A DNA stretch of 64,000 nucleotides from contig OZ024743.1 in NCBI GenBank assembly GCA_964016885.1, positions 5,642,001 through 5,706,000 of the forward strand, written 5' to 3'. Shown here piece by piece: positions 12,347-40,013 of this stretch (the stretch's first letter is position 1; each line of letters begins with the position of its first letter). Below the pieces are notes generated by a model. It did no database searches. It saw nothing but the letters and a program-made list of their open reading frames with translations, and was not told the DNA's origin. The translations under genes were made by a program, and so were the position numbers. The DNA is from Eledone cirrhosa (lineage: Eukaryota).

Positions 12347-15300
12347 ATAATAATAATAATGAAATTATTGTGTACAGTGCTCAGGTGCACTACAACTCAT
12401 CAAAGGTGCATGTATAGTACATAGAATAATGTACAAATGTCAGGAAAATGAACAGTGTATGAGTCATGATATAATAACAATAACAATAATGAAATATTGT
12501 GTACAGTGCCCAGGTGCACCACAACTCATCAAAAAAGTGCATGTACAGTACATAGGGCAATGCACAAACATCAGTAAAATGAACAGTGCACGAGTCATGA
12601 TACACACGTGTGCATGTGTATGGAAGGGGTACATCAGGTGTAGTTTTGGCGTATTTCGGGAAGCATGAGTGTCTTAAAGGATGCAGTGTCTCGGCAGCTA
12701 ACAATTGACGCAGGCAATTGTTCCATGCTTCAGCAACTCTGAGCGTGAAAAAATGTCTGCGAAAGTCATGGGAGCTGTGCTGTTTTCTGATCTTGTAGGT
12801 ATGTCCACGTGTGTTAGACACATGGAGATCAAAGAGGCGCTCAGGGTTGCAGTTGGCGAGATGGTTAAAAACTTTGTGGGTATTCACCAAGTCCATTGCC
12901 AGACGTCGGAGCTTCAATGAATCCATGCCCAGGGAAGCAAGGCGTTCAGAGTATGGTAGGTGTCTGATGGAGGGTATGTGCTTGGTTGCACGTCTCTGAA
13001 CAGTTTCCAGGAGGTCAATGTTCCGAGCAAGATAGGGGTTCCAGACTGATGATGCGAATTCCAAGTGTGGTCGCACCATAGCTGTATACGGTTTTAAATA
13101 GATGGCTGGAGAGCGGCTAACAAAGGTCTTGCTGAGTGATGCCAAGACACCCTCGGCCTTCTTGACAATCTTAGAGACATGCTTTGTCCAACGCAAATCG
13201 TTGCTGACAGTAATGCCCAGGTCACGTTCACAAGAGGACTTTTTGATGTCAGTTGTGGAGGGAGTATGTGGACGCTGGATTTTTCCTTCCAAAATGCATG
13301 GTGGTACACTTGTCCACAGCCAGCTTCAGTTGCCAGTCTGTGATCCATTGCTGCATTGTGTCCAGGTCTGATTGTAGGAAAGAGTTGTAAATTTCAGGAT
13401 CAGTCCTTTTGATTTCAAGGTACAGCTTGATGTCATCTGCATATTTTAGTACCGTGGCATTCTGTAAGTTGGCATCTATGTCATTAATATATGCCACAAA
13501 CAAAAGAGGACCAAGAACAGATCCCTGTGGTACACCAGATGACATCTCATATGGTGAAGAATGCTGTCCTAGAACCGTGACTACTTCCTTTCGGCTGAGA
13601 ATGAAGGATTTCAGCCAGTCGAAAAGATCATCCCTCACACCCATTGCAGAGAGTTTTGCCATAAGTCTTTTGTGTGGCACAGAATTAAAAGCCTTAGCAA
13701 AGTCAAGGTAAACAACATCCACCCATGAGCCGTTGTCAGTGATCCGGGTGATGTCCTCAAGGAACTCGATAAGCTGATCACAGCAGCTGGAGTTAGGGAT
13801 AAATCCAAACTGTGAGGGCCGGATGAGGCTGTGAGAGCTCCAGAAGTTCCAAAGTGTTTCTCTGACACAGGATTCCATCAGTTTGGCCATACAGCTAGTA
13901 AGACTGACTGGACGATAGTTGACAGGTGACATGCGGTTGCCCTTTTTGAACAGGGGAATGACACTGGCAGTTTTCCACTACTCCGGAGTAGCACCATTGC
14001 TGAGACAGAATTGAAAGAAGAAAGAAAGCTGGTGCAAAAGGAAGTACCCGCCACGTTTGAGAAGCAGGTATGTCACACCATCAAGACCAGGGGAGGCATA
14101 GTTGCGCTTATTCTTAAGGTGACGTCGCAACATTGCAGGTGTAAATTCCATAGTTGTTATGGAATTTGATGTTAGAGATGGTGCAGATGGTACATTCTGG
14201 TTTTCAACCGTAAAAATACTTGCATAGCACTCAGCAATGAGTTCTGCGCATTCCTTGGGATCGTCAGTGATCTGGCTTGTGTGGGGATTGCGAAGAGGAC
14301 CAACTGGAGAGTGAGGTCTCTGCTTTGAATGAACATATTTCCAGAACACCTTACTGTCAGGATTGGTTGCGATGCACTGTTCAAATTCAAGCACTGCCTT
14401 CTTTGTCACTTGCTTGAGATGGTTAGAAGATTTATTCCGCTTTTTTCTGTTGGCATCTGAGCTATGCAGTTTATATTCCCGTTCAGCGTTCCGACGTTCT
14501 TTCCTGGCAAGTCGGACCGCTGAAGTTTCCCAGATTGCACTTTTGGGGTGGTTATTTTTCCGCTTCCGTGGCACTGATGCTGCACATGCTATCCATATTG
14601 AGTCCAGGATGCTCTGGAGTATAGAGTTCACATCTCCAGAGTTATACATCTCATGCCAGTTTGGGCGCTGTAGCTCAGTGCAGTACAAGTTCCAATCCGC
14701 CCTCTTCCAATCAAAGCAAGCAGATTGGAGATGGCTCTGGTTTTTGTTGCTGCCCTCAAGTGCCAGATTGGCAATGATCATAGCATGATCAGAGTCGCCT
14801 AGAGGTTCCTCAGTAGTACAACTGATAACCACTTCAGGAGTAGTGGTGAAGATCAGGTCCAAAGTGTTGTCACCTCTTGTTGGAGAGGTGACTACTTGTG
14901 ACCAGTTTGAGTCCAGCACTAGTTCAAGGAAATCGTTTGCACCCTGTGGCCAACGAAAGGTTTCCCAATCGATCTCAGGATGATTGAAGTCACCTGCAAT
15001 AAACACATAAGTGGCTGTTTTCTTGGCAGCAACTCTGAGGATATCGCAAAGCTGTGTGTCCTGATGGTAGTTTGGGGGGCGATAAACAACACCAAGCAGA
15101 AGTGTTGACATGGTCATACGTATGTCACAGAAAAAAACTTCTTCATGTGATTCGTTCAAATCAACGCAAGGAATTACCGAAAAGTTTGAACAAACGTAGA
15201 CCATCACACCACCACCACGGCGGTTAATGCGGTCCTTGCGGAAAAGGTTGTACCCAGTAATGGTGAAAACCCCATCACAGAGTAAGGAATGTGCCCATGT

Positions 15301-15488
15301 TTCCGTGACTGTGATGAAGTCAGGGTCGATGCTTCTGACGTAGGATTCGAACAGATGTATCTTGTTGCATAAACTGCAAGCATTTAAGGACAACAATTTG
15401 TACCCTGCTCGCAGTTTATGATGGTGTGTAGAGGGTGGCAGGTTGTTCTGGTTTAGAATACATGCCTTCTGGACAGTTCATTGCAGAG
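12347..15488 (-). mobile_element. CR1-clade LINE, nearly complete ORF2 (APE endonuclease + RT), one nonsense codon (13978) and one frameshift (~13250)
   Basis: APE motifs VTETW, GDFN, LDLIF, SDH; RT motifs QFGF, DFAKAF, GVPQGSVLGP, KYADD; CR1-type C-terminus TRGH..K...FF..RV..AWN; (ATT)n tail; 5' boundary approximate. Confidence 0.95.
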
Positions 15489-18936: not shown

Positions 18937-19520
18937 CTAGTTTGGTGATAATGTATAGTGGAGAACTTCAGGGCATGACGCAGAATGGTTTTTTTCATAA
19001 TACTCATTGTAAGGGACAAGCGAATCCTTTTTCTTTTCAACATATTCTTCACTAAAATCACTGTCACTGGAAGCCAGAGTGAAACATGAGACTCCAGGGT
19101 CCCAGTTTTGTAGAGCATCTGTGTTATTAACAAAAGAAATTATTGGCTTATTAGACTTGTATGTAACTTTAGCAAATGGAGTGTCTCCTTCAAACAACAT
19201 TTCTCCATTTAAGAGAATACTTGGTCTGGTGTGTGGTTTATATTCTGCCTCTGCTTCCTCATCAATTAGCTTGTTAGTCTCCTTTTCAACATCGTCTGGT
19301 TTATTTTCTGTAACTGAAGATTTTCTTGCCCTCTTTTTACGGAACTTATTAAAGATGCAAATAATAATCTTCAAGGTTATAATAATGCCTAGCACACAAA
19401 GTATGAAAACCAAAATGCTTAAAACTTTTTTCAGGTGTTCCAATTTTTTTTTTGCATTACGAGTCTCTCCAAGCTCTTCGTATGTAGCAAAGAAATTGGT
19501 TGAGCATTCAACTGAGGTCT
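18937..19520 (-). CDS. Orphan type-I membrane protein, exon 3 (stalk, TM helix, Tyr-rich cytoplasmic tail, stop)
   Basis: Acceptor ttttgtttcAG, phase 1; open through ETSVECSTNFF...VLSILVFILCVLGIIITLKIIICIF-NKFRKKRARK (TM + basic stop-transfer) to TAG at 18937. Confidence 0.8.
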
Positions 19521-20380
19521 CTGAAACAAAATGAAATCATTAAGAGGATTATCAAAACAAATATAGAATAATCATTTCTAACTTTGGCACAAGGCCAATA
19601 ATTTGTGTGTGTCGGGGGGGGGGGGGGGAATAATTACATTGACCACCAGTAAATGACTGGTATTTTATTTTATGGACCCCATAATGAGGAAAGGTAAAGC
19701 TGACCTCAGCTGAATTTAGAACATACAAGGTCATAACTAAATGCTGCAAAGCATTTTGTCTGACGTTCTAACAATTCTGCAAATCCACAAGCCTCAAACA
19801 GATATAAAATGATATCAGTTTTTAAAATATGCACAAAATACAAACAAAAATAACTTAATAATAAACAAAAAACACAATACCAACAAAGAGTTGTTCTCAA
19901 TAATAGGCCAATCAAAGGACCCTACAGATTCTGAATTACCCAGATTACCAAGGACAAGTACTTACTCCCAATTGCCATTTATCATCCTTCTTACGCACTC
20001 TTCCTGTTCCCCTCTCCTCCATAATGTACAGAGGGCTCAATAATTGATAGACTCTTTAGTGCAGGCACCACAACAAAATGCACCCAAAATATTCTGTGAA
20101 GTGGTTGATGAGAGGAAGAGGATCCAGCAGTAGAAGCCCTGCCAAAAAAAGGTTTGAGAGAAATCTTCAGTTGTATCAGAGGCATAACAACCTCTTTAGT
20201 GCTCATGGCATTATGAAATGCACCAAGTGAACTATGTAGACTACAGGAACATATGTGAGATGAGATTTGGCTCCTAGCTCATCTGAGATCAGTAGCTCTA
20301 ATTAAGTACTGACTGGGTCTGGGACGACCTGTTCAACATTTACTAGCAGGGAAAATGGACATTAAATGATTATGTATGCA

Positions 20381-20427
<47 letters not shown>

Positions 20428-21750
20428 GCCAACTGTCTGAAACTGAAACTGGGGACAACTTACACTATCCCTATAGGTTAACCTAATGAAAACTAAGTAT
20501 GATCTCTCAATAACCTGCTGTGGTTTGTTCAGGTTCACATTGGTTAATTTGGAAAATCCAAGTGATACCTCTTAGACAATTGGAAATGGTTCAGCAGGTT
20601 TTCAAGACCTTTACATTTCTGTCTCCAACAGAATCACTGCATAAGTCTAAGATGCCATTCCAGTCACTCAATAACACTAATGAGTGAGATATTTCTAGGA
20701 GAGCTTTTAGACACATGAACAAATCTGGCCTTCCAGCCCTTGATTGGGTGTAAATGCTTATTTGTCTGTAAACTACAATATCCACAGGTGTTCACAAGGA
20801 CTACCATATAAACTCTGTAGATCCATACTTTTCTAAAACAGTACTGCCATGCTACTTAACCCAGGCTAGCTGAAAAATGCATAGATCTCCTTAAGTCAGA
20901 TAAGAAAATAAGCAGACGTTTCTCAGAAATGTCGGTTTCACTGATGGCTATCATATCTAGATTTAGTGACCTGAGATCTTTCAGCTTGTGTACTTGTCAA
21001 CCCCAGACCAGCTATATATATTCTTCTTACAAAGTGGATGATTGAGTAAATAGAATAGCAGACATCCAGCTGTGCTTAGCGCTCCATATACAATCATCAG
21101 AAGTAGATAGTGTCTGTAGCCAAGAGACTTAACTTTCAATAAATCGTTTTAGTGATCAACAGAAGCCCTCTAAAATCAAGGTTTTGAAGCTTTCAGTACA
21201 ATCATTAACTTCTTCTATGAATCTGGACAAGGTGATAGAGAAAAGAAAATCTGTCACAGTACTCAGCAAATCAGAAACCCTAATCATTTTCCTTAGCCCC
21301 TGCAGTGGATTTTTATTCCAGGCCAAATGTGCTGAGTGAAGGCACGTGGCTGGGTGGTTAGAGAATTAGATGCGCAATTGTGAGGTTGTGATTTCAATTC
21401 CCAGACCGGGTGATGCGTTATGTCCTTGAACAGGATACTTTATTTCATGTTGCTCCTTTTGCCTGGATTAGTATTAGCAATTGGAAAGATCAATGGAAAC
21501 ATTGTTTCCTCAGTCCGATTTGACAAGCTCCACCCCACTTGTTAAGCGAATGAGGTCTGGGATCTTGTCTGACAGGTGTGCAGTAGCCCATCCTCCATAA
21601 CATTTACCATGTTCTGCCATTGACCATTACTTTATTGATGAATTTCAGATTAATCGTTTTTTTATTCTGAAATTGATAACATTTAAAAATAGATAATTAC
21701 ATTTAATATTAAATTTAAAAAAATAAGATTTATTTCAAAATTATATTTAC

Positions 21751-22071
21751 CTTTTTTTATTGGAAGATGACAAGTGGCTGTAAATGTCTGCAAGTTGCAT
21801 AAAGCTCGGCAGCTAAAAACCTCTGCTGTGCCTTTGTTTCTAATATCTAGTTTGGAATAATATCCATTGTGAAATGTAGGTTTTTTACTGATGTCAATAA
21901 CTGCTTCTGTATGAGTATTTCCATTTATCTCTTGCACCCACCAGATATGTTGACATTTGAAATGTGTGTCAGTTAAGTTTGTTATTTTACAGTTTAAGGA
22001 TTGTATGCTACTATTGTTATTTCCAGAAGATTTTGTTACAGTAATCACTATTTGTATTTGTGCTTGTGCAT
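21751..22071 (-). CDS. Orphan type-I membrane protein, exon 2 (Ig-like domain)
   Basis: cattttTAG acceptor, G|GTAAAT donor, 321 nt, phase 1-1; LNC...IWW...YYSKLDI...FSCRA has Ig B/C/E/F-strand spacing. Confidence 0.78.
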
Positions 22072-23380
22072 CTAAAAATGATAAAAATAAAGAGCCATGT
22101 TTATTTGAATTTATAAAGAAATTTACTCAGTAACAAATGTTGGCTTTGCTTTATCTTTCAACATATTTTATTGAAGAAATATCTCACCTTCATTTCATTT
22201 TAGAACTTCTTTGATTTTTTTACATTAATTAACCTATATGGAATAGGCAATAACACTAAAGATATAAATCTATGATTTTAGTAAGGTATCCTAGATGCTC
22301 ATTGACACCGAACATATTAAAACCCAAAGATATATTTTTCATATCCCTAATTCCTGCCATAGAATTGAGTTGATATGATGTCAAACTGTAGCGAAATCTC
22401 AACACATTTTCCTATGATGGTTTTCTTAGACCACCACAAACAACTTTAAGATTGACCTACGACCTCAGAGCCACAAATTTAGATAACATTCTCTGGTGGC
22501 AGGACTGATAGTGCCAATTATATGCAGGGAGAACAATAGAAAAATTTCCCTTGTAAAGATCAGTCTGCTTTTCGTCTCTGGAAAAGAGAGTCTGCTGCCC
22601 GACTCTGAGAGAGACATCTTGTTCATTCATCCTTGCAATGTAGCCACATACACAATCGCATAAACTTGTTAGCCAGCCTTGCTGAGAAAATTTACCAACA
22701 CAGTTCAATCTAATATTACAACATTTGCACACGACACACTACAACTATATATGCATTATTTGTCTGTTGTTCATTGCTGCATATGATTTCAAAGTAAATC
22801 AATGTTACAAAAAAATATTAAAATTAATGGCGTCTTGTTCATTTGTTATTTTTTATTCAATGGATATGGGAAAATCAAATCCTCCCATGTTAATATCACT
22901 TCACACCACAGCAAGCAAGTACAACTTCTTGTTTCTTCAAACATGGCAAGGCTTCTCTCGATTCTCTCAGATCAATTTCACTTACTTCACTTGACCAAGC
23001 TACTCACTCATCAACTTCACCCTTCATCACTATTACTACTACAAATGAAAAAAAAACAATAGAACAAATCAACCAAACCAACAGTTAACACAACACCACT
23101 AAAAGACTACCAGTGAAAGAGTGCATAATCTGCTTCAGCACTGCATTGTATTCATGATTAATGTGGTTGGTGATAGGAAGGGCATCCAGCTGTAAAAACC
23201 GCAGCCAAATTTACAGTCCTTGTCGGAGCAAGGTATGGTGTGGCCAATTCTGGCCAGACTTGTCACCCTTCTAATCCATGCAAGCATGGAAAAATGGACA
23301 CTAATTGGTAATGGTGATGATGATGATTTATGTTTAAATAGGTACCATAAGGCCTTGTTTCAGTGGGTTACCAGGGACAA

Positions 23381-23411
<31 letters not shown>

Positions 23412-24247
23412 TTTTCAAACGTCTATGTTTTATTTTTTGTTTATTTGATATAATAAATTTCTTTTTAAGCTTTTTTTTTATATCTGAACTTCATTTGAAT
23501 ATATAAAATTTAATTAGTGTAAAATCTTATTTATGTGATAGGGTCCAGGAAAGGCTCCATAAGCAATACTAACATGCTCCTTTAAGAATCACAAATGTTG
23601 TTTTGTCCCCCTTACATTTTTAAGGCAAATGAGGCTCTGGTAGGGTAGTCTAGGTACAATTTGTTATTGTAAGCAGCAAAGTAGTAGGAACATGTTATAA
23701 CTCTTTAGTTGTGCTTCATGACATGACTAAATCAAACAGCATAACAAAAAACAAAAAACAAACGTTTCCTGTCATATAGTCAATAGTTAAAGTGATGATA
23801 AAATAAGGTGTGTTACTATGTGAGTTTAAGTTAAAGTGAGATAGAAATTTTATCCTCCCAATGTAAAATAATCCATAGAATTTAGTAATTTGAAACTAAA
23901 CCTTATCTCTCAGATATTAAAAAAAACTCTATTTCTACACCTGTTTGTGTGTGTGTGTCTTGGAAAGGAATATAAATTATCATATCACAAATGTAGTTTG
24001 AAATACTTCAAAACTGAAATTTGTGATCAGTGGTATCGAAGTAATTCAATCTTCATTCACATTGAATTTTTTCTTTACATCCCTTAAATTCCTTAGAATC
24101 AAACCACTCTGACCTGTCATTTCATGAGTGCCATGACAAAACAAATCTTTACATAAAAATCTTTCAGATTTTAGATCAACTTTTCTTCATTTTATATTTT
24201 TGTTGTAAAATAGTAGTAAATTCCTACAAAGCCATATTTAATAATAA

Positions 24248-24436
24248 TTGTTTATACTTTTGGCACAAGGCCAGCAATTATCCCAGTGTATTACTGGTAC
24301 TTTATTTTATCGACCCTGTAAGGATGAAAGGCATAGTTAACCTCGGCAGGATTAACTTTGCCTTACAGAGTCGATAAAATAAAGTACCAGTAATACACTG
24401 GGATAATTGCTGGCCTTGTGCAAAAAGTAGAAACAA
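24248..24436. mobile_element. Inverted pair of SINE-A 3' halves forming a ~190-nt palindrome
   Basis: TTGTTTATACTTTTGGCACAAGGCC...TCGACCCTGTAAGG mirrored by CCTTACAGAGTCGA...GGCCTTGTGCAAAAAGTAGAAACAA. Confidence 0.88.
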
Positions 24437-24729
24437 AATAATAATAATAATGAAAATTATTGTATACAGTACTCAGGTGCACTACAACTCATCATATAGT
24501 ATAGTACATAGAATAATGTGCAAATATCAGGAAAGTGAACAGTGTATACACAGATACATCATATACACAGATACATTGTGCAATTTCAATTTTTGTTTCA
24601 GCTAGATGTTGAAATCTTCTGAACAAGTAGAAGTCAAATAAATCACATGCATAATCAAGCAGGTAACACGTGATGGGGTCATACCAAAAGACTTGCACAG
24701 CAGTATACTTATTAGTTGTTACAATGAAA

Positions 24730-26110
24730 AAGGTGATGAACTAGAAAGGAGCAACTAGAGAGGCATAAAACTGACAGACCAAGTTATGAAAGTGACAGAA
24801 AGAGTTTTAGCACAACTAATTAGGGAAATAGTTAGATTAGATGAGATGCATTTGGTTTTATACCAAAGAAGATCACAGATACCCTTTTCTTTGGGAGACA
24901 ATTACAAGAGATGTTCCTAGTTAAGCGTAAACCATTATATCTAGCTTTCATGGATTTCGAGAGGCCTTTGACAGAGTATCGCAATCTGCCATCTAGTTGT
25001 CCTTAAGGAAACTAGACATAGAAAATGGCTTGTGCAGAGTTTTTTTTTCTTTCAGCTCACTTATGTTATGCCATTCATCCATACTAACATTACATATCTG
25101 CCAAAGCAATGTAATGAAATTATCCTTGGGTTAGATTTGCTGTAGTATGGAAATATAGTTTATTTTCGTATCATATGTCATATTTGTCAATTCTAACAAA
25201 CGTAACTGTGATGAGATCTAGTGACAGAAGAACAAGCCATGTTCAGAGGTGCTGTCAGCAAGGTTAAAGTTAATAATAACTATAGCGGGGAGTTTAGTGT
25301 GCAAGTCGGGGTCCACCAAGGCTCTGTCCTTAACCCTCTCCTGTTTATTATCATCCTCCAGGCTATAACAGAAGAGTTTAAAACAGGATGTCCATGAGAA
25401 CTCTTGTATGCTGATGATCTAACTCTCATAGCTGATTCTATGACAGAACTAGAGAAAAAATTCCTGACCTGAAAGCATAACCTGGGATCAAAAGTTCTTA
25501 AAGTCAATTTGTCAAAAACCAAAGTTCTAGTAAGTAATAAAGAAAACAAGGCCCTGATCCCTTCTGGAAGTAGCCCTGCTCAGTGTGTAGTACTGCATTG
25601 AAATTCCATCCTGTCTCAAATGCAAGCTGTGTGGACTGTGTACACAAGAGATGGAATGGGATCTTAGGTAGGCTAGCTAAGAACATAGGTTTTTACTTGT
25701 GGCCATTACAGAGGAGGCATAAGTAACAAACACCCACAAGAAACAAGTGCTATCAAATTTTTGGAAGGTTCCATAAAAGCAGTTTACAGTTTCTTTTACC
25801 TGGGTAACCAAATTAGCTGTGGAGGTGGGTGCACCAAAAGTACAGTAGCCAGAGTGAGAATGGGTGGAAAAAGTTCAAGGAACTACTACCGCTGCTAGCT
25901 ACAAAAGGATTTTCCCTCAAAATGAAGGGCAGATTGTATGATGCATGTATACGAACAGCAATGTTACATGGTAGGGAGTTCTGGGCACTGTGTGCAGAAG
26001 ACCTGCAAAGATTGGAAAGAAATGAAGCTTCCATGCTTTGATGGATGTGTAATAGTAAAATACAGGAACGGGAAAGCATAAATGAACTGAGAGAGAAACT
26101 GCTAGCACTC
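24730..26110 (+). mobile_element. Decayed RTE-clade LINE RT
   Basis: Fragments LIREIVRLDEM, FDRV, VGVHQGSVLNPLLFIIIL, LLYADDL, GWKKFKELLPLL, KGRLYDACIR; many frameshifts. Confidence 0.8.
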
Positions 26111-26157
26111 CAATCCTCATGCACCTACCCCACTCCAGCTCCAGTCAACACCATAAA

Positions 26158-26349
26158 GTCGTCGTTTTGGTGACACAACAAAAAACACCCAGTCCACACA
26201 GTAAAGTCGCTGTGTTGGCAACACAATAAAAATGCCCAACCTACACTGTAAAGTAGTCATGTGGGTGTCACAACAAAAAGCACCCTGTCAACACTATAGT
26301 GTGGTCATGTAGGTGTCACAATAAAAAGCATCCAGTATACACTGTAAAT
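26158..26349 (+). repeat. Four ~48-bp tandem copies of a SINE-tail segment (GTGGTCATGTGGGTGTCACAACAAAAAGCACCCAGT..CACTGTAAA)
   Basis: Direct reading; runs into the standard AGGAAGGGCATCCAG tail. Confidence 0.8.
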
Positions 26350-26509
26350 GTGCTTGGCATTAGGAAGGGCATCCAGTCATAGAAACATAGACAATAATCA
26401 GTTCTGTATGAGCAAGACAGTCACCTGATCTGACTTATCTCACAATGGGACAACTCATCTAACCCATGCTACATGGAAAAATGGATATTTAATGGTGATG
26501 AATGCATAC

Positions 26510-26541
<32 letters not shown>

Positions 26542-26878
26542 GGAGGCACATGGCTTAGTGGTTAGAGCATTGGCCTTGCAATCGAAAGGTTGTGAGTTCA
26601 ATTCTCAGACCGGGTGATGTGTTGTTTCCTTGAGCAAGGCACTTTATTTCACATTGCTCCAGTTTACTCAGCTGTAGAAATGAGATGATAGGGACTGGGG
26701 TCCCTATCATTCCACTGCAAAGTGGTCGTGGAGGTGCCACGGCAAAAAAGCACCCAGCACTCACTGTAAATGAGGTTGGTGTTAGGAAGGTCATCCAGCT
26801 GTAGAAATCAAGCCAGAATCAGTTCCCGTCCCACCCTTGCAAGCAGGGAAAAGTGGACATAAAATGAAATGATGATGA
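26542..26878 (+). mobile_element. tRNA-derived SINE (family B), full length, with RTE-type tail
   Basis: A-box TGGCTTAGTGG, B-box GAGTTCAATTC, CCTTGAGCAAGGCACTT core, (GAT)n end; related heads at ~21340 (+), ~15500 and ~33900 (-). Confidence 0.82.
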
Positions 26879-27063
26879 TATATATATATATATATATGAA
26901 TATAAAGTGACAATAAGAATTGCAGCTTTTTGTAAACTTTATTACATATTACAATTTGTTGTGATCAGATCCTGACTCTTAATCGACACTTCTTCAGATA
27001 TGAGAGTTTACATGGGTGGTCCCATCCGAAGTTACCCACCTAATAACCTATATATATGTATAG

Positions 27064-27097
<34 letters not shown>

Positions 27098-27503
27098 GTG
27101 TATATATATAGTTAAAACTTAGACGGGAACAAAAACACAAATAAGAGTTTATTAGGTTCACGCTTTTGAGAGTGTGTGTGTGTGGGGGGGGCTTATATAT
27201 ATATATATACATATATATATATACATGTATATATACACACACACACACATATATATATATGTACAAAAAGCAAACAGAAATAACAAAGCAAACGACACAC
27301 TACAATGAATGAATATATTATAGGTATCTAAATGTAAAAATGTGCAGCAACTTTATGAATATTGTGTTAAAAGTATATCTTAACTATTTTTTTTAATTGC
27401 GTGCATACACACTAACATATCATTCTTCAATTTTATATTTGATTAGTTACGTTAAATAGTGAACATAATATGATTTCAACCAAGTCCAAAATGTAAGACC
27501 TAC

Positions 27504-27552
27504 CTTTGATAAAATACAAACAATATAGAGAAAGGAAAGGAAAAATATTCAT
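27504..27552 (-). CDS. Orphan type-I membrane protein, exon 1 (signal peptide)
   Basis: aaacATG; MNIFPFLSLYCLYFIK + G|GTAGGT, phase 1; joined to exon 2 it gives ...YFIKDAQA-QIQ with an A-x-A signal peptidase site. Confidence 0.65.
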
Positions 27553-29339: not shown

Positions 29340-30020
29340 GGACTGAATGTAGAACTACTTGGTAGACTTTCAGCTTGGTAATAATGATGATACCTATATG
29401 TTCCCAGAGTGAAGTGTGCTCTTCTAAAAGCTGGGTTTACTTTGGCTATCCTGGAATTGATCTTATCATCATTGCAGAAGTGTCTTGAGAGAAAGCCACC
29501 AAGGTAGATGAACTCCTCTGTTCATTATTTTCGGCTCTCTGTACTTGTGATCCGGTTAGTGCTGGTACATTACTTTAGTCTTTTTGGTGCTGATAGACCA
29601 AAGTTATCACTGGTTACAGAGAGCCTGTCTATGCTTTGTTGCAAGTCATTGGTATTGCTGGCATGCAGTGTAAAATCATCTGCAAAGAGGTCATGAATAT
29701 TGGAGGTTTGTATTTTAGTCACTATTAGGCATGTAAGGTTGTGAAGACCCCTATCCCTTCTGTAATAGATGTGAGCACCTGCAGGAGGGTTATCCTTGAA
29801 GGCATCTGTAAACATTGTCAAGAACATTATACTGAACAGCGCTAGTGCCAATAAACACTCATGTTTTACACCATTGTTGCCAGGAAAGTCTTCCAGGGCT
29901 TCACCAACATTAAGGGCAGGAGCCATCAGGCCATCATGAAATTATCTAACAATGTTGGTAAATTTATTTGAGCAGCCAAACTTAAATATAATCTTCCAGA
30001 GGTTTTCCCAATTTACAGGC
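29340..30020 (-). mobile_element. Decayed RTE/BovB-like RT fragment
   Basis: NGVK..C.LA..LFSI, DLFADD, DLQQSIDRLS...NFGL in ORF 29570..29926. Confidence 0.7.
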
Positions 30021-31699
30021 TGCAAAGTGTTACTTTTTTTTTTTAGAAAACTTAGCTTCTTATATAGCTTTTGTAGGTGGTCATGTAACGGGTGTAAGAT
30101 TTGATGTTTGTTAATCAAATCTATTGTTGTATGGTTGGTTAGATTTGTCAGTGGTTCATTGTAATGTGGCAGGAATGTGTAGCAGTAACTGTTGGTTTGA
30201 TGGGTGATTTCTAAAGTTGTTCTTTCTCGTATAAAGCACTGTGCGTATGTCTCAGGGAGTCAAGATGTATGGTTGCTAGAGCCAAGTGAATGAATGATAA
30301 CAAGTTGCTGCTACTTTCTTAATTTTATTAAATAACAACTTACTTTGAAGTTATTGTGATAACATAGGAAACTGACAAAGAGTACAGTATATTATGTCTG
30401 TAATGTGGTTTTGTGTAAATGCTTGTACTAGTAGTCTTAAAAGTTATATGTAACTAAACTTTGTTGATATCAAACGGAAAATTAACTGCCTTAGCTTGTT
30501 GTCCGAAAGGCCAATGGATTAGAGTGAGTCTGTTGATAACTACATTGTTCTGTGTCTTTCATGAACTACATTGGACAACCAAGGGCAGACTATTTATGAG
30601 GATCCTGTTATCAGATGGTTTCAAGAAAACTATTCCCCCAAGACAATTTGGCAACAGGTGTCCAAAAACAAAGGAAGTAAATATCTTTGAAGCCAAATGG
30701 TCAGCATGTGTGGTCGCAATGACTTATTTAGCCAACCGGGGACTAGAAGTTCAAATCTCTCTTCTTAGATTCACTGTAGACTCAGTTTTAAATGGAAAGT
30801 GAAATTGTTAGGTGAAAAGCGAAACTGTACTAGTGCAAAAACTGTTACTCAAATGTTAAATTTATAGAACATCAATTTCAATGAGAAATAATTTTTCCAA
30901 GGTTTTTCCATGTGGTATTAATTAATCTGACTCCGGAACATGTTGCAAAGAACTTTTTTCCGCAGAAAACGGGGGGGGGCATCCGCAGACTTTTCGCCCC
31001 CTGGTGTTTTCTTTACCATTTTCTTGTGCTACCAACTAACTTACTTCTGAATATGCCACAAAGGACTTTTTTCTAGGAAAATCGAGTGGGAAGGAGGGAC
31101 CCTCGTACCTGCTCCCGTCTTGGAGTTTTTTTTTCTTTACCTCCCAACTCTAACACCACCCCAACGCTAACTCTAGCCCTGATGTAGGGGGGGGGGGGGG
31201 TGCAAAGTCCGAGGGACCCCTCCGTTTTCTGGGAGGAGGGTTCTTTGTGGCATGTTCGGAGTTAAGAGTAGTTGGTAGCATACGAAAAAAAGAAGGAAAG
31301 GAAAACGAGAAAAAATAATTATTTCCCACTAAAATCGATGAAGGGTGTTCTATAATATTCAAATGTATTTTTGGAAAATTAATAAAACTGCACCATTTTC
31401 GCGTTCGATTGGGACATTTTTTCCCTATTCTTTTTTAATTTTTTTATCGTATTTTCAACGAACCTGATCTTCGACCGGTTTGGAGGTCAGATTCATTGAA
31501 AACAGGAAAACACTAGAGAAAAAATAATTTCCCATCGAGTTAGTGTAGATCTTAAAAATTACCATATTTTCCTCTATACTTCTATGTTGACGTAAGCAGG
31601 GACAAAAAAGAAATTACATCTTTAAAATTTGTATTACAGATAAAAGCAGAAAGATGTCGCTGCGGATCCACCGTAGACTCTTTCGGCTTCCACCCGCTG

Positions 31700-32150
31700 T
31701 CATGTCGTGACGGCCGCCTTCCACGCCATGCTGCTCTCAACGACATCATAAAGCAGGGCATGGATGCTGCAGGCTTCCTCTCCCAGCTCGAGGCGACATA
31801 ACCATATTCCTGTTCTGCGGTGGTAAACCCTTCATCTGGGATGCCACATACAGCGACACTTTCTCCAGCGGCAATCTGGTGCAGTCAGCGACTAATAAAG
31901 GTTTTGCTGCACTTCGGGTCGAGGGGGGTAAACACTCCAAATATCGCTCGCTTCCCGACATGTTTGCAGTTGAACCCGTAGCAGTGGAGACTTCCTGTGT
32001 CCTTGGCCCTAAGACCACCTTCATCGACACGAAGTTGGCTACCAGCAGGTCTCGCGAACTGGAATAGCTCTTCCAACACGTCTTCCCACCCCGGTGAAAC
32101 GCCTTCTCTATTTTGTCCGCCGGGGCCGCGGGACGGCAAGCGTGTAGGCC
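31700..32150 (+). mobile_element. Decayed 3' fragment of an RLE-type (CRE-like) non-LTR element
   Basis: GKP.IWDATYSDTFS, K.SKY, VEPVAVETS.VLGP motifs; homologous to 60020-60705. Confidence 0.65.
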
Positions 32151-32303
32151 CAATTTGCTTATAATAGAGATGGGGAGAGCGAGATAGACGGAGGCAGTGA
32201 CTATACCAGCATTGCTGAAGTATTTTGTAGAGTTAAAGGTTAAATGATTTTCCACCCATCTATTAGTCTACAAAATGTTAGAATCTTTATATATATATAT
32301 AGA

Positions 32304-32398
32304 AGAGCTTCTACAGCACTAGAACTGTTTCATTCGTGAGAAATCACCAGGTATATGATTTCTCACGAATGAAACAGTTCTAGTCTTGTAGAAGCTCT
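32304..32398. repeat. 43-bp inverted repeat (41/43) built from two hammerhead-like Penelope-type termini
   Basis: AGAGCTTCTACAGCACTAGAACTGTTTCATTCGTGAGAAATCA-ccaggtata-TGATTTCTCACGAATGAAACAGTTCTAGTCTTGTAGAAGCTCT. Confidence 0.85.
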
Positions 32399-32544
32399 GC
32401 TATGTATTGAGTACCTTACTTACTGTGGTTACCTCCGATTCAACCCGGAATAACTTACCTATATATATATATAATTAAGACTAGATTGGCAATTCATAAA
32501 ACAATGTTAACAGTTCATTTAGTACAATTTATGAGTAGAAGAGT

Positions 32545-32646
32545 TCCTATTCCGCTTCCCATAATTCTACATCCGGAATATAAACCCGGTGTGGTTTAAG
32601 GTTTTTTTTCAATAACGTGTTCAGATAATTTTACTTATTCGGATTT
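32545..32646 (+). promoter_or_regulatory. Candidate promoter and non-coding first exon of SF3A2
   Basis: ETS-like CGCTTCC/CCGGAA motifs and local CpGs, then T|GTAAGT donor at 32647; the ATG exon has its own acceptor at 35226, so an upstream exon is expected. Confidence 0.4.
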
Positions 32647-33177
32647 GTAAGTATTTTTCGATTGTGACATTAATTATTTTTCTTTTTAAAGTATTTCTAT
32701 AAATAAATTGAAATAGTAATGACGCAAAATGTTGATAGTTTGTCTGGTAAAAAATTTATGGCATATTAAAACTTTGTGATATTTATACAATAAAGAAACC
32801 CGCTTTTTGGTATAAATTACAAATTAAATGTCGATAATTATTTATTTGAAGACAATCAAAGCCTCATGAAATTCTATATTTTACTATGAAGTCTATTTCG
32901 TTATTGATGTGATTCTTAGAAATTGATGTTATAATCTATTACTTTATTCTCAAATTAAACACACTTGTAATAACAGTTAGTACTCCCAACCTCTATATGT
33001 ATTCCTATTGTGGCTTCTACTTTTACTTATGTTTAGTCTTGTGTTTCTATTATTAACAATTTCTAGTGATCCAAGTACTTTTGTTTTTCTGCGATTCTTC
33101 ATATTACGATCCTAAGCTCAAAATAAAATACAAATAACATGTAATATAAACATCAAAATTTTTAAAGAAACAAACAA

Positions 33178-33362
33178 TAATTGTTTCTACTTTTGGCACA
33201 AGGCGAGCAAAACCCAGTACATTACTGGTACTTTATTTTATCGACCCCGTAAGGATGAAAGGCAAAGTTAACCTCGGCGGGATTTGAACTCAGATCGTAA
33301 AGGGACGTAACTGTGTTGGAAAGCATGGCGTCCGACCCTCTACCGATACTGCCAATCCATGC
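33178..33362 (-). mobile_element. SINE family A, full length
   Basis: Reverse complement of the 16971 consensus including the A and B boxes. Confidence 0.85.
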
Positions 33363-35241
33363 TACGTATATTGAATCATATTCTTTAAATTATAGAATAT
33401 TTAACAAGGAATATATTGTTTGATATAGTAGTTACTTTTGGTTCTTCTAAAGACAAATGGAACAGGAAATCTCAAACAATTTAGTGGAGTCACTATTATG
33501 GAATGGACCTTCGTCGGTTTCGACGATGAGTGCTCCACTTGTTCGATCAACGGAGCAGCCAGTTCGTGAAATTGACGTGCAAGTGACACAGCATTTCATA
33601 GACACGTGTACCTTTACCGTAATTATCAAGAAGATTCAGTATAACATCGTGATAAGGCCAGCCCTTTGAATTATAGGTACAGTCCATCCGACGGGCTTTC
33701 AAACAGTTTCCGTCTACCCACAAAGTTTGGGTTAACCTAAAAAAATAATCTAAAGTCTGTCTCTAATTATAATACATAAGGCCAGTTCTTATCCCTGTTT
33801 CTGTGTGTGAAATGACTTGAGAATACAAGACTTCCTCCTGGACAGGACACCAGTCCATCGCAGGGTTAACCCTCCAGCTATTGCTGGTACTCATTTCCAG
33901 CTGAGTTTACTGCAGCAACGTGAAATGTAGTATTTTGCTCAAGAACACAACACACAACCCAGTCCAAGAATCGAACCCATGACTTAAGGCTATGGTAAAT
34001 GACACTTGCCCAAGATGGCACACAGTTGGATTGAACTCAGAACTTGATTGCAAAGCGAACTCTTCAACTGTTCAGCTATGCGTCCACAGTCCGTACTGTA
34101 TTTGACCACACAGGTGTGTGTATATATATATATATATAAATTAGTATTGGTGTTCCAACATAGCGTTATACACATGTATATATGTGTTGTATATTGAATA
34201 ATATACAGGATGTTTATGAAAAACATTTGACAGTATTTCGCTATGAATTTTCAGCAAAAGCAAGGGGAAAGTAACCAACAATGCGTTGTTTCTTGCTTGT
34301 TGATGGTTGTCAAGGTTACATATGCACCTAGCTTCCACAGAAACAAAAATAAGCTAGAATCTTGTAGATTTCTCGCTTGTGTATATGAGCTGATGAAACT
34401 CATTTGCATATGGAGCGACAGCTGGCTTGGCTTAAATTAAAAGATTAGTATTGGTGCTCCAACATAGCGTTACACTCCTTGCTTTTGCTGAGGCTAGGAT
34501 GTGTGATGGTGGTCACAGCCTTAAACATTCATAGTAAAAGGCTGTCAAATGTTTTTCATAAACATCCTGTATATTATTCGATATACAACATGTGTATAAT
34601 GCTCTGTTTTCTTTAGATAATTTAATGACTTTCGTGTACGATTGCATTTTGTTATTCTAGTTTTTGTTTGTATTTCTTTTTGAATTTATGCTCATATTAT
34701 GAAGGATCTGATAGAGCAGACTTAGATCACGCAGACAGTCGAATGGCTGGCCTAGCTTAACCCACAAATAAGCCTGTTGATTCTAATAAGAGCCACATCA
34801 AAGGCAGGCTATGGGGATTTGGTTAGAGTACAATAGTTGCTGTATTATTGATGATATACACCCCAGCATGGTGATTAGGAGCTCATGAAGGTATTGAAGC
34901 TGCTGCTATAGCATTGTTGGTCAACTGGATAAGCTGTTGGAAAACCAGCTGAAAGACTTTGATGATCAAACCCCACTAGATGCAAATAGGTACTGTAGGG
35001 TAGTGTAACTCTGTAGGCAACATAGATCAGGGATTAGTTTTGGCCTGCAATGTTATATTCAATTCTGCTAGTTGGAAAAGTTACTCATGATAAACTGCCA
35101 CCTTATTGTCTTTCTTCATTCTGCAGTTGATGAAAATGGTACCAGTAATTAAGAGTATCTTCTCTATGTATATAGAATGGTTTTGTTACTTTATCTTTCA
35201 ATCATTTTGGTTTATTTATTTTTCAGATACATTAAATAATT

Positions 35242-35367
35242 ATGGATTTACAACACCGTCCTGGTGGTAAGACTGGTTCTGGCGGAGTGGCATCCGCTTC
35301 AGAAACCAACCTTGATCGGCGAGAGCGGATGCGACAATTGGCCTTAGAGACTATAAATTTAAATAAG
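35242..35367 (+). CDS. SF3A2: Splicing factor 3A subunit 2, coding exon 1
   Basis: MDLQHRPGGKTGSGGVASASETNLDRRERMRQLALETINLNK|GTAAGA; matches the SF3a66 N-terminus. Confidence 0.97.
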
Positions 35368-36728
35368 GTAAGAAAATATTCCTTAGAAATATGTTTCTCT
35401 CTTCATCATTGGCTCTGTCAGTAATTTGTGTGGAGCCTAGAGTAGATATGAATGGAAAGCTATGAACATCTGATTGTAAGACTTTGTTATTCTACTTAAA
35501 AATAGGTTCCTTCTTATATTATGGTTAAGTAATTAATGTTAAGAAAATCATCTATGTGCAAGATACTATGCCCTACAAAATTGTATGATAATATAAAGTC
35601 TTTGAAATCTGAAATATGTTTTAAATTTTTTATGAAAATATAATAGTAAACATAGAGTAATGTAAATGCTAAAGAGTTAAACCTCCTTCAAAATTGGTTT
35701 ATCATCAGAACAAGTTTACCACACTTTTTCCAATAATATTTATTACTGTTATGTATCATCAGAAGTTCAGCTTTGCACAATGTTCTATGTGTACATAACA
35801 ATTATAAATATAAATCCTGTCATCAAGCAATTAAAGTAAGCAGAAATGCAGTTAAGCTTTTACTTTATTTTCACCTGAGCCTTTGTATTTATCTTGCAAA
35901 TCACTTGCTTCTTAAATACAAGATCTACAAACTGTCACCCATTTTGGCTCGGTCTTATTAGAGGAGTAGGGCAGCACCTATGAACTTTTTCCATGTCTCT
36001 GAAACTGAAAGGGAGGATGTTATCCTCAGACCAGAAACCTGGTCTGAAGTATAGCAGCAGAGTTGCCTTCACCAAAGGCTATGTGGTGGTGTTAAACAAG
36101 ACAGCTGATTAAATCTACCCACCCAAAACAGTTTCTATTCTCCAAATTTCGCTTGCGAGGCTTTGATCAATCTGAAGCTATAGTAGCAAATATTTGCCCT
36201 AGGTATCAAGTAGTAGGAGCAAGTGAAAGCCATGTCTTGGATTGTTTTTTCTATTTTTAAATTTAAGTTGAGAATTTTTTTATCGCTAGAGAAAAGAAAG
36301 GGCAAAAAAACTCACAGAAAATATTTATACCGGCTGTGTCTGGCCAGAATTCTCTCACCTCTTTCTGTTCAAACTAGTTATAACCGGCCGTTCATACTGA
36401 CATTAAAGTATTGCTCTCAAAATAAATAATATTAAAATCTCGTAGATTCAATATAATGTGAGATAAAGCCGTTATAGTGAAAATACAATAGCAAATATAG
36501 AGTAATGGAAATGGTCATGGGTTAAAGCCTTTTTCATTGTATTTACTCTAAAGCAAATATTTAAGAATGTATACTAATTTGCATTGTTATCAATTTACTA
36601 ACTCTTAAACAAAATTACAATTAGTTCTATATTTTTTTATGAATTGTTAAAAAATACTATTTTTCTTTTGTTTCTTTAATTTGTTATCAGAATAATAATT
36701 AAGTTTTCTTCATGTTGTTTCTTTTCAG

Positions 36729-36800
36729 GATCCTTATTTTATGAAGAATCATTTGGGATCTTATGAATGCAAATTATGTCTGACATTACACAACAATGAG
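36729..36800 (+). CDS. SF3A2: SF3A2 coding exon 2 (start of the U1C/matrin-type zinc finger)
   Basis: DPYFMKNHLGSYECKLCLTLHNNE, AG/GT. Confidence 0.97.
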
Positions 36801-37512
36801 GTAAATATTATGAACTGATTTTTCTTGAATCTATCCTCAATCTATTAACATTTAGTATATACTTTAAATACATAATATATTTGTAAAGCTTTGGAACTTA
36901 TCATTACATCAATTTAAAATCTCAATAGCTCCTGCAACTTTTCATCTTATAAAAAGTAATAAGATGTTGGTGTTAGGAAGGGCATCCAGCTGTAGAAATC
37001 AAGCCAGCATCAGTTCCCGTCCCACCCTTGCAAGCAGGGAAAAAGCGGACGTAAAAATGAAATAATGAATGATGAAATGATGATTCACTTTTATTTCTGA
37101 CTTGGCTTACAAAATACAGAAATTCATGTTGTTTTTCTTTCATTATCATGTGTTATTTATAGTTTACTACTGTATTTTTCATCGCACTCAAACTGACTGG
37201 GCTAAAGAATAAAAAAATATTATCAAACTCATAATGTATGAAAATAAGAAACATGTTTAGTGATGTTGTTTTCCCTAAGTGGAAAATATTACTAATCTCA
37301 CTTTATGGTGTTGACATTCTTAATGATAATGTAATCAGAACAAACTCAAACACTAATCTTTATACTCAAATTGAGTTACTCATTCACTACATGCCTGCTA
37401 ATAGTAGTTGTGAAGAATTAAAATATATGATCCTCATATCTTACTTCAAAACTTGCAATGCTTTATTTTTATAGCTATGGATAGTGACTTGTTATATTTT
37501 TATTTCTCACAG

Positions 37513-37559
37513 GGAAGTTACTTAGCTCATACTCAAGGAAAAAAGCATCAGGCTAACTT
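37513..37559 (+). CDS. SF3A2: SF3A2 coding exon 3
   Basis: GSYLAHTQGKKHQAN(L), AG/GT. Confidence 0.97.
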
Positions 37560-38481
37560 GTAAGTATTTTTATTTTATTTTTTAATTATTATGTTATAAT
37601 TAAAACAAAAATGTTCTAACTTTGGTGCTGTCCACACAACCTAACCTCACTGGCTCTATCTAAATCACATTTGACAATATTGTTGTGTGTGAGCAATATG
37701 ACAAATGGAATTTGTATCACTTGCAAATCCAAAGTGTAAGCCTGAGTGAGATGTTGACATGAAAACAGTTGTTATCCAACTGGGTACCAGTCAACCTCCA
37801 GGGTATAACATTCAGATATGTCCCCTTGTGAAGTTAAGAGGTAGAACTGAAACATGCCAATCGATGCTGATCAAACAAATGTACAAGGTTCTGTGAGACT
37901 GTCGCTGTTAATAATGAACTGATGGAGCATCCACAGGATTAAGACTGAGTCGCATCCAGATCACATAAGGGGTTTTGTATGCTCTGATCATGGTTGGTTC
38001 TGCTGTGCAGGGTAACCATATTGTTTTATGTTGAAGTGAAGAGGATCATCAGAACTCTTATTAACCAAAAGTGTTTTACATGAAACCATTCGAAAGTGGT
38101 GATTTTCAGAAGTAGAGAATCACTAGAGAAAGGGACAAACACTGAATTGCAGGGGATGATGGGAATAGAGCCAGTGATGAATGTTTTGAAGAGAAATAGA
38201 ATGAGATGGTTGGGTCTTGTGTTGAGGAAGGATGAAAGTAACTGGGTGAAAAAAAGGATGGAAATGAATGCGGAAGGAAGTAAAAGGCCAAGAAAGTTTT
38301 GACTAAAGATGATGGAAGAGGAAATGAAATCCGGGAGTTTGGTGAAGCAGTTAGAGAAAGTCGGAGAAAATGGAGAAGTTTGTCATGGGATCTGCAAATC
38401 TAATTTCTGCTTCAGCAGAGAACATGCTTTTAGAATGCTTATATAATTATTCTTTTCTTCTTTTTTTTAAATTTTTATTAG

Positions 38482-38591
38482 AGCTCGGCGAGCAGCAAAA
38501 GAAGCAAAGGAGGCCCCTGCACAACCAGCACCTGAGAAAGCCAAAGTAGAAATTAAAAAATTTGTTAAGATTGGCCGACCTGGTTACAAAG
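38482..38591 (+). CDS. SF3A2: SF3A2 coding exon 4
   Basis: ARRAAKEAKEAPAQPAPEKAKVEIKKFVKIGRPGYK, AG/GT. Confidence 0.97.
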
Positions 38592-39194
38592 GTGAGTTTC
38601 TTGTATTCATATAGTTCCATTTTATTATTTTGCTAACCAAGAACTGTAGAGAAAGCTAGAATAGATCATTATTGTTTCTAGTTCAGTACTATAATAATGA
38701 AAATATTGTGTACAGTGCTCAGGTGCACTACAACTCATCAAAAGTGTATGTATAGTACAAACGTCAGGGGGGGAAAAAAAAACGTAGGTCAGTTTAATCG
38801 ACTTTTTTTCTTTCCCTAAAATTACAGGCCTTTTGTCAATGTTAGAAAGGTTCTTACAGAAAATTAGAATAGAAGGTTTTTAGATAAATATAAACACTTT
38901 AAAATAAACAGCTTAGTATCATTGAACCAGGGGCAATTTGATATCAGAAGGGTTAAGGTCTGAATTATTTAAGGCACCCTATCTTTAACTATTATTTAAC
39001 ACATGCTTTTATTCTCTCTTTCATATTGATAATGTGATTTATGATATGAGCCACCACTTATTAAATGTATCTAGAATCTAGTCTACAAGTTAAAAATAAG
39101 ACACCAAATATGTTATTTTAAAAAGATATATGTAATTTGATTCTCTAATATGTTTTTTTAAATTTCTTTTTCTTTAATTTACCACATATTTTAG

Positions 39195-39244
39195 TCACAA
39201 AGCAAAGAGACCCAGAGACCATGCAACAAAGTTTATTGTTTCAG
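39195..39244 (+). CDS. SF3A2: SF3A2 coding exon 5
   Basis: (V)TKQRDPETMQQSLLFQ, AG/GT. Confidence 0.96.
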
Positions 39245-39800: not shown

Positions 39801-40013
39801 TTTAAATTGTCTAATCTCGATAAACAAGTGTAGTCTTGAAGTATCTTGATTTATTAAAACATGATACTGAATTCTATGAGTTGTCTTTTTATTTTGCATG
39901 TTACTTCTTCATATTTTCCCAACTATCCCAAACATTTAGGAATGTGTCCATTTTGTAGTGATTCTTCATTTATATGTTGTATCAAATATGTTGAATTTTG
40001 TTATTTTCTGCAG

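What the first reader, a model, noticed from the sequence alone, without database searches (positions are those of the whole stretch)
18937..27552. Orphan single-Ig-domain receptor with a tyrosine-rich tail, assembled from three phase-1 exons
Seen: exons 27552-27504, 22071-21751 and 19520-18937 have canonical GT/AG sites, all phase 1, and join into a stop-free 317-aa protein. It reads: signal peptide MNIFPFLSLYCLYFIKDAQA, one ~105-aa domain with C..W..C Ig spacing, a ~25-aa TM helix, KFRKKRARK, and a ~135-aa tail with 7 Tyr and an acidic SSDSDFSEEY patch. Known: one domain per phase 1-1 exon is the usual IgSF layout. Inference: a lineage-specific immune, adhesion or recognition receptor. I recognise no orthologue, and the ORF track shows only pieces of it.
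Basis: partly seen in the sequence, partly recalled or inferred. Interest (0 to 1): 0.72.

Follow-up and report, generated by a model that had tools for sequence, protein, structure and literature searches.

The report
Cephalopod Ig receptor, novel conserved tail
This octopus gene, shared with other octopuses and cuttlefish, encodes a likely cell-surface protein with one predicted antibody-like domain outside the cell and, inside, a 50-residue stretch of no known family that is better conserved than that domain and likely docks a partner protein.

Summary
The three exons are real. They have GT/AG, phase-1 junctions and join to 317 aa without a stop. Full-length orthologues exist: Octopus sinensis LOC115209176 X1 (uncharacterized), O. 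bimaculoides, Argonauta and cuttlefish. A limpet (Lottia) protein shares the ectodomain and membrane helix, so the gene is not an orphan. Cuttlefish sequences place both introns at the same sites. Exon 2 is predicted as a seven-stranded Ig sandwich (pLDDT 84; Z 10.2 to Ig domains). The 'tyrosine-rich tail' does not hold as a family trait. Seven of 133 residues is not a significant excess, only 2 of the 7 are invariant, and no ITIM, ITSM, ITAM or YxxPhi motif occurs in 7 coleoid sequences. It has no family match and is absent from the limpet protein. A SASCP site follows, 14-3-3-like in 6 of 9 sequences but not in this one. One copy was found in this genome. Best reading: a single-Ig cell-recognition receptor that likely signals through a coleoid-specific docking module. 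Ligand, partner and tissue are unknown.

The parts
27504..27552 (-). Coding exon 1: ATG and most of the predicted signal peptide (residues 1-16); phase-1 GT donor
   Evidence: best match in the window to the O. sinensis N-terminus. The signal peptide is judged from hydropathy, orthologues and a predicted helix; no signal-peptide predictor was available.
22072..27503 (-). Intron 1 (GT...AG, phase 1), rich in high-copy repeats
   Evidence: same position in cuttlefish inferred from P0023 against P0015 and P0022
21751..22071 (-). Coding exon 2: end of the signal peptide and the single Ig domain (residues about 21-123), with Cys44, Cys56, Trp61, Cys104, Cys108, Cys117 and two N-glycosylation sequons
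   Evidence: AlphaFold2 pLDDT 83.8, seven strands; VIA Z 10.2, rmsd 2.2 A over 88 residues to IgM C2; profile match to VEGFR2 Ig domain E 0.0029; five Cys and the Trp invariant in 11 of 11 rows
19521..21750 (-). Intron 2 (GT...AG, phase 1)
   Evidence: same position in cuttlefish inferred from P0023 against P0015 and P0022
18937..19520 (-). Coding exon 3: stalk with conserved Cys129, membrane helix, whole cytoplasmic tail and TAG stop
   Evidence: 67-68% identical to Octopus orthologues; unique-sequence depth and no listed coding difference in three DNA runs of one sample
19351..19425 (-). Predicted membrane helix (residues 156-180), followed by the basic cluster at 19347-19321
   Evidence: Hydropathy, coordinates, predicted helix; only 3 of 27 columns invariant
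19075..19224 (-). Conserved cytoplasmic core (residues 223-272), with invariant Tyr244; no known family; likely docking module
   Evidence: 33 of 48 columns invariant across five full-length orthologues; no Pfam, PDB or Atlas feature match; modelled as four short strands at pLDDT below 50
18970..19008 (-). C-terminal conserved patch with invariant Tyr298 and the SASCP site (His at -3 here, Arg in 6 of 9 sequences)
   Evidence: mode I 14-3-3 consensus from PMC5670032 (passages)

Best explanation
The gene has three exons and encodes a 317-residue protein predicted to be a type I cell-surface receptor, whose single predicted Ig domain likely binds one of the animal's own surface proteins and whose conserved 50-residue tail core likely docks an intracellular partner. 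Shown: exon structure, open frame, orthologues across octopods and cuttlefish, six conserved ectodomain cysteines, one copy found in the genome, and a tail core better conserved than the Ig domain. Predicted: signal peptide, Ig fold, membrane helix. Inferred: Cys44-Cys104 is the usual B-F disulfide, Cys56-Cys108 a second one, and Cys117 and Cys129 pair within or between chains. Also inferred: ligand binding or cell contact clusters the receptor, the core binds a conserved scaffold or enzyme behind a variable, charged linker, and serine phosphorylation at SASCP (14-3-3 type where Arg is kept) and perhaps at the two invariant tyrosines tunes this. The tail module appears to have been added in the cephalopod line to an older molluscan Ig-plus-membrane unit.
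For: Full-length orthologue O. sinensis XP_036356738 has the same three parts. Seven 322-339 aa sequences run from signal peptide to tail on Logan contigs of 1.3-1.9 kb. A genomic read-through, P0023, agrees with the full-length P0015 for exactly 112 residues and departs at both intron positions, so the short contigs are inferred to be spliced transcripts. Ig fold. Identity of the window protein to two decapod-type proteins is 74-80% in the core against 43-47% in the Ig domain and 27% in the juxtamembrane linker. Invariant columns are 33 of 48 against 29 of 97 (Fisher p 1.4e-5; region chosen after seeing the alignment). One locus was found in four searches of the genome. The tree groups the window protein with octopods (94/98, drawn open). 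The Lottia protein aligns over ectodomain and membrane helix (hhalign probability 93%) but not over the tail (0.6%).
Against: No ligand, partner, tissue or phenotype is known. The function rests on architecture and conservation alone. The core has no confident model (pLDDT below 50), so it may be a set of linear motifs rather than a domain. The window's own SASCP site has His where 14-3-3 mode I needs Arg. No family member reaches a Pfam Ig cut-off (best Ig_3 23.4 bits against 30). Foldseek's top hits were superoxide reductase sandwiches, not IgSF proteins, and a pectate lyase scored Z 9.5, within 1 of the top Ig rows. Two RefSeq models (O. sinensis X2, O. bimaculoides) lack the signal peptide. 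The family sample is small: about seven independent coleoid sequences.
Confidence: 0.55

Rival explanations
1. It is an innate immune receptor on haemocytes or epithelia that recognises microbes or non-self cells and signals through tail tyrosines.
For: Single-Ig type I architecture. Atlas feature neighbours include PVRIG and V-set immune proteins (0.93 and 0.91). Structural ties include CD160, B7-1 and SIRP-gamma. Two tail tyrosines are invariant. The ectodomain evolves faster than the tail core.
Against: No ITIM, ITSM, ITAM or YxxPhi in 7 of 7 coleoid tails. The Lys in the hydrophobic stretch is not conserved (Asn, Ile or Ala in orthologues). One copy was found. The structural hits are ties among generic Ig domains and show no function.
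Confidence: 0.2
2. It is an auxiliary subunit or chaperone of a channel, transporter or larger receptor, working in cis as basigin or sodium-channel beta subunits do. The tail core binds the partner's cytoplasmic face.
For: Basigin domain 1 is among the tied top structural matches (Z 10.0, rmsd 2.6 A, 83 residues). There is a weak profile hit to sodium channel beta-4 (E 0.21). A single conserved copy with spare cysteines near the membrane would fit a disulfide link to a partner (inference).
Against: The membrane helix is poorly conserved (3 of 27 invariant) and has no conserved charged residue, whereas basigin-type chaperones act through a conserved helix (recalled). The beta-4 hit is not significant and covers mostly the membrane region.
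Confidence: 0.18
3. The frame is a chance join of open stretches, or a pseudogene in this species.
For: No direct junction evidence exists for this species. A high-copy repeat begins 3 nt behind the stop codon, and the last few residues differ from Octopus.
Against: All three exons are intact, with canonical splice sites, and match a full-length orthologue in order. The core is 88-90% identical to other octopods.
Confidence: 0.03

Closest known systems
Octopus sinensis LOC115209176 (XP_036356738.1 X1, XP_036356739.1 X2); O. bimaculoides LOC106867350; Argonauta hians GAB1599730.1; Sepia pharaonis CAE1321695.1
   Same: Likely orthologues: same architecture, six cysteines, tail core and SASCP site (the Sepia model covers only the N-terminal half). 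The window protein is 72% identical to X1 in the Ig domain and 88% in the core.
   Different: All are annotated as uncharacterized. The window protein has two more tail tyrosines than X1, His instead of Arg before SASCP, and its own last residues.
Lottia gigantea LOTGIDRAFT_152706 (UniRef 'Ig-like domain-containing protein')
   Same: Hydrophobic N-terminus, one Ig domain with all six cysteines and the C-strand Trp, stalk and membrane helix align (E 1.5e-7; probability 93%).
   Different: Its roughly 245-residue tail is unrelated, lacks the core and SASCP, and has two YxxPhi motifs. Orthologue or paralogue is not resolved (long branch).
Single-Ig type I receptors of vertebrates (PVRIG, CD160, CD79b, MPZ/P0, sodium-channel beta subunits)
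   Same: One Ig domain outside the cell; language-model features and fold agree. Most are single-pass with a short tail (recalled).
   Different: No significant sequence homology to these. No ITAM or ITIM here. The model has seven strands with no V-set extension. The tail core is absent from them as far as the searches reach.
Basigin / neuroplastin / embigin
   Same: Domain 1 of basigin is a tied top structural match (Z 10.0).
   Different: They have two or three Ig domains and a conserved membrane Glu (recalled); this family has one domain and a variable helix.

Membership tests
Immunoglobulin superfamily domain | Two-sheet beta-sandwich of about 100 residues | tested here: met
   Predicted model, pLDDT 83.8, pTM 0.75, seven strands; Z 10.2, rmsd 2.2 A, 88 aligned. 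A prediction, not a solved structure.
Immunoglobulin superfamily domain | Cys on strand B and Cys on strand F, 55-75 residues apart, with a Trp on strand C | tested here: met
   Cys44, Trp61 and Cys104 (60 apart) lie on the second, third and sixth predicted strands and are invariant in 11 of 11 rows. Disulfide geometry was not measured.
Immunoglobulin superfamily domain | D-x-G-x-Y-x-C motif before the F-strand Cys (motif recalled) | tested here: inconclusive
   Y-x-C in decapod-type, Lottia and P0026 rows; F-x-C in the window and Octopus; Asp and Gly not kept. The profile still matches VEGFR2 here (E 0.0029).
Immunoglobulin superfamily domain | Score above a Pfam Ig-family cut-off | tested here: not met
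   No row of alignment A4 (11 rows) passes; best Ig_3 E 8.4e-5, 23.4 bits against 30, for P0026. The window exon has no Ig_3 or I-set match.
Immunoglobulin superfamily domain | One domain per phase 1-1 exon (common layout, recalled) | tested here: met
   the sixth conserved Cys falls in the next exon.
ITIM/ITSM/ITAM immune receptors | ITIM, ITSM, ITAM or YxxPhi motif in the tail | tested here: not met
   0 of 7 coleoid tails (patterns recalled)
Adaptor-coupled activating receptors (DAP12/FcR-gamma type) | Conserved charged residue in the membrane helix | tested here: not met
   Lys174 of the window aligns with Asn, Ile or Ala
Expanded or diversified invertebrate immune IgSF families (FREP-like, Dscam-like) | Many paralogues or exon arrays | tested here: not met
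   One locus in four genome searches; the only other row was E 0.9 with a stop. The tool's counts are lower bounds.
V-set single-Ig proteins (MPZ, sodium-channel beta, PVRIG) | Nine-strand V-set domain with C' and C'' strands | tested here: inconclusive
   The model shows seven strands and constant-type domains lead the list, but MPZ and nectin-2 domain 1 score Z 8.7-8.9; Atlas features favour V-set.
Basigin family | Two or three Ig domains and a conserved membrane Glu (recalled) | tested here: not met
   One Ig domain; no Glu in the helix of any row
14-3-3 mode I clients | R-S-x-pS-x-P motif | tested here: inconclusive
   Present in 6 of 9 sequences; His replaces Arg in the window, O. bimaculoides and Argonauta. 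It occurs in 34-143 of 20,000 shuffled tails. Consensus from PMC5670032 (passages). Phosphorylation and binding were not testable here.
Cell-adhesion or recognition IgSF receptors | Binding in trans to itself or another surface protein | not testable with these tools
   Needs cell-aggregation or ectodomain binding assays

The most novel reading that the evidence does not exclude
The 50-residue tail core is a small folded signalling domain invented in the cephalopod line and grafted onto an old molluscan Ig ectodomain, defining a new receptor-to-cytoplasm coupling that octopuses and cuttlefish have kept almost unchanged and that serves a coleoid-specific cell type, for example in brain or skin.
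Probability: 0.3. Interest if true: 0.65.

Novelty: new member of a known kind. Interest (0 to 1): 0.4.

Why it matters
Single-Ig membrane proteins are a common kind, and orthologues are already in RefSeq as uncharacterized, so the gene itself is no surprise. What is new is the family description: an Ig domain that Pfam misses, a limpet relative, and a tail core that is the most conserved part of the protein, matches no known family and is missing from the limpet protein. That makes it a compact candidate for a signalling module gained in cephalopods. It is directly testable by looking up LOC115209176 in octopus cell atlases and by pull-down with a 50-residue bait. I found no paper naming the orthologue identifiers (supplements of two papers).

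Tried and rejected
RNA evidence for this species: no RNA holder listed. The three runs found are one sample of contigs that read as genomic DNA; they confirm the sequence but say nothing on splicing. Metagenome scan: 173 pattern matches, none confirmed. Pfam on exon 3 gave only sub-threshold membrane-helix matches. The tail core gave nothing usable in Pfam (1 weak row for 6 queries), PDB sequences (1 row, E 0.75) or the Atlas (no feature hit; structure rows at TM 0.48-0.57 under the naming bar). The weak UNC5 N-terminal match (6 of 11 rows, best E 0.011) is below cut-off and not taken as homology. Foldseek's YEATS and superoxide reductase rows are generic sandwiches. Complex prediction of a homodimer was not available, so dimer formation is untested. 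The Lottia protein as query found no match in this genome, not even the known locus, so that search shows nothing. Rfam: none of 29 rows reaches a gathering score or overlaps a coding exon, so no known RNA family explains the conserved core. Papers: two identifier searches gave 0 hits; five topical or atlas searches were seen as listings only. Supplements of PMC9712504 (3 files searched, one scanned file unreadable) and PMC11202624 (1 file) do not hold the identifier; larger tables not held may. Passages of PMC9795677, PMC10084454 and PMC9023564 did not bear on the gene. Earlier scan notes: nothing relevant. dN/dS could not be computed because no orthologue DNA was available. P0024's apparent sixth Cys appears to be intron read-through and was not counted.
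Full report
Observation. The three exons are at the stated coordinates on the minus strand, with GT donors and AG acceptors. They are 49, 321 and 584 nt long, both introns are phase 1, and the join gives 317 codons and a TAG. Exon 1 is too short to judge alone, but it is the best of 54,976 stop-free 16-mers in the window against the N-terminus of the O. sinensis orthologue (score 48, next 33). Two decapod-type signal peptides are too diverged to pick it out. No RNA test for this species was possible, so splicing here is inferred from relatives.

Relatives. Exon 3 found 7 proteins among 108 candidates, and a profile found 10 among 3,533. A word-free HMMER search of 1.84 billion representatives found 7, five of them strong. 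The named ones are O. sinensis LOC115209176, O. bimaculoides LOC106867350, an O. vulgaris fragment, Argonauta hians and Sepia pharaonis, all uncharacterized. O. sinensis isoform X1 (322 aa) has signal peptide, domain, membrane helix and tail in the same order. Seven proteins of 322-339 aa lie whole on Logan contigs of 1.3-1.9 kb. P0023 is identical to one of them, and to the Sepia model, for exactly 112 residues and departs on both sides where the window's introns lie. I infer that P0023 is a genomic read-through, that the whole ones are spliced transcripts, and that both introns are shared with cuttlefish. The tree places the window protein with octopods (94/98, not starred) apart from the decapod-type rows. 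Beyond cephalopods, Lottia gigantea LOTGIDRAFT_152706 (E 1.5e-7) and an unnamed 115-aa fragment (E 6.9e-5) were found. The Lottia protein aligns over ectodomain, stalk and membrane helix (probability 93%) but not over the tail (0.6%). The gene is therefore not an orphan. Four searches of this 3.0-Gb genome found one locus (lower bounds).

Ectodomain. Exon 2 folded with an 11-row alignment at pLDDT 83.8 into seven strands. Of 48,161 chains, the top structural rows are Ig domains: IgM C2 (Z 10.2, rmsd 2.2 A, 88 aligned), MILL2 (10.1) and basigin domain 1 (10.0). These are ties, and non-IgSF sandwiches reach 9.5. Foldseek ranked superoxide reductases first (E 4.3e-4), so the fold alone says only 'Ig-like'. 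Sequence tips it to the Ig superfamily. Cys44, Trp61 and Cys104 sit on strands B, C and F and are invariant. The family profile matches a VEGFR2 Ig domain at E 0.0029, and the Atlas neighbours are Ig clusters (leads only). No member passes a Pfam Ig cut-off, which fits the lack of annotation in coleoids. Four further cysteines (56, 108, 117, 129) are kept as far as Lottia. Their pairing is inferred from strand positions, not measured.

Membrane segment. One hydrophobic stretch (149-184) is followed by a basic cluster. It is poorly conserved (3 of 27 columns), and its Lys174 is not kept. This argues against coupling to a charged adaptor.

Tail. The seven tyrosines are not an excess (7 of 133; p about 0.11 against an assumed 3%), decapod-type tails have four, and only Tyr244 and Tyr298 are invariant in 8 of 8 orthologous sequences. 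No ITIM, ITSM, ITAM or YxxPhi motif occurs in the 7 coleoid tails scanned. After a variable charged linker (2 of 47 invariant) comes a core at residues 223-272, invariant at 33 of 48 columns against 29 of 97 in the Ig domain (Fisher p 1.4e-5; region picked after viewing the alignment, columns not independent). It is 74-80% identical between the window and decapod-type proteins, where the Ig domain is 43-47%; the octopod-decapod split is roughly 270 million years old (recalled). The core matches nothing usable in Pfam, the PDB or the Atlas. The full-length model draws four short strands and a helix there at pLDDT below 50, so whether it folds is open. Near the end, SASCP is present in 9 of 9 sequences. 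Six have Arg before it, which gives the 14-3-3 mode I consensus (PMC5670032, passages; 34-143 of 20,000 shuffled tails show it). The window, O. bimaculoides and Argonauta have His, so this is a lead for the family and weak for this protein.

Mechanism. I commit to a cell-surface recognition receptor. Its Ig domain likely binds an endogenous surface protein, and its tail core likely docks a conserved intracellular partner, tuned by serine and possibly tyrosine phosphorylation (0.55). The architecture is close to certain (about 0.95); everything about ligand and partner is inference. A single copy with the strongest constraint inside the cell fits a fixed partner better than a pathogen arms race. 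The rivals are an immune receptor (0.2), an auxiliary subunit acting in cis (0.18), and an artefact or pseudogene (0.03).

Comparison and novelty. It works like vertebrate single-Ig type I receptors in layout but is homologous to none that the searches could see. It fails the defining tests for ITIM/ITAM receptors, expanded immune families and basigin. It is a divergent Ig-superfamily member and a new member of a known kind. Searches for seven orthologue identifiers found no paper, nor did the readable supplements of two octopus transcriptome papers; unseen tables may list it. The boldest reading not excluded is a cephalopod-born cytoplasmic domain on an old molluscan ectodomain (0.3; interest 0.65 if true). 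It rests on one non-cephalopod full-length relative. Overall interest 0.4.

Noticed in passing
window 35251-45371, + strand: SF3A2 (Prp11) gene, head-to-head with the receptor gene: coding exons near 35251, 36768, 37528 and 40047 (Pfam SF3A2 E 9.9e-20) and a proline-rich last exon with PPHG repeats at 44907-45371.
   Followed up: partly
window 30001-34000: CpG observed/expected rises to 0.68-0.91 between the two divergent genes, against 0.1-0.5 elsewhere in the first 48 kb; possibly a shared promoter region or a repeat effect. It holds long inverted repeats at about 30870-31340 and 32295-32407.
   Followed up: no
window 18934 and below: A very high-copy repeat (contig depth about 600,000) begins 3 nt behind the stop codon, and the last residues of the protein differ from the Octopus orthologues; the insertion may have reshaped the C-terminus or 3' UTR.
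   Followed up: partly
window 19013-19534, + strand: A 173-codon stop-free frame lies antisense to exon 3; probably a by-product of the real frame.
   Followed up: no
window 22072-22080, - strand: O. sinensis X1 has two extra residues at the exon 1-2 junction, as if it used an acceptor 6 nt upstream; the window has CAT rather than an AG there, and its junction length matches the decapod-type proteins.
   Followed up: partly
window 12390-15477 (-), 41893-44564 (+), 61285-62802 (-): Three near-identical, partly broken LINE-type elements with endonuclease and reverse-transcriptase-like frames (named from recall, no family search).
   Followed up: no
window 55403-58189, - strand: A broken Gypsy-like LTR retrotransposon pol region with protease-, reverse-transcriptase-, RNase H- and integrase-like pieces in separate frames (named from recall, no family search).
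   Followed up: no
window 26551-26608: A tRNA-like match just under the Rfam cut-off (28.1 against 29 bits) inside a very high-copy repeat of intron 1; probably a tRNA-derived SINE.
   Followed up: no
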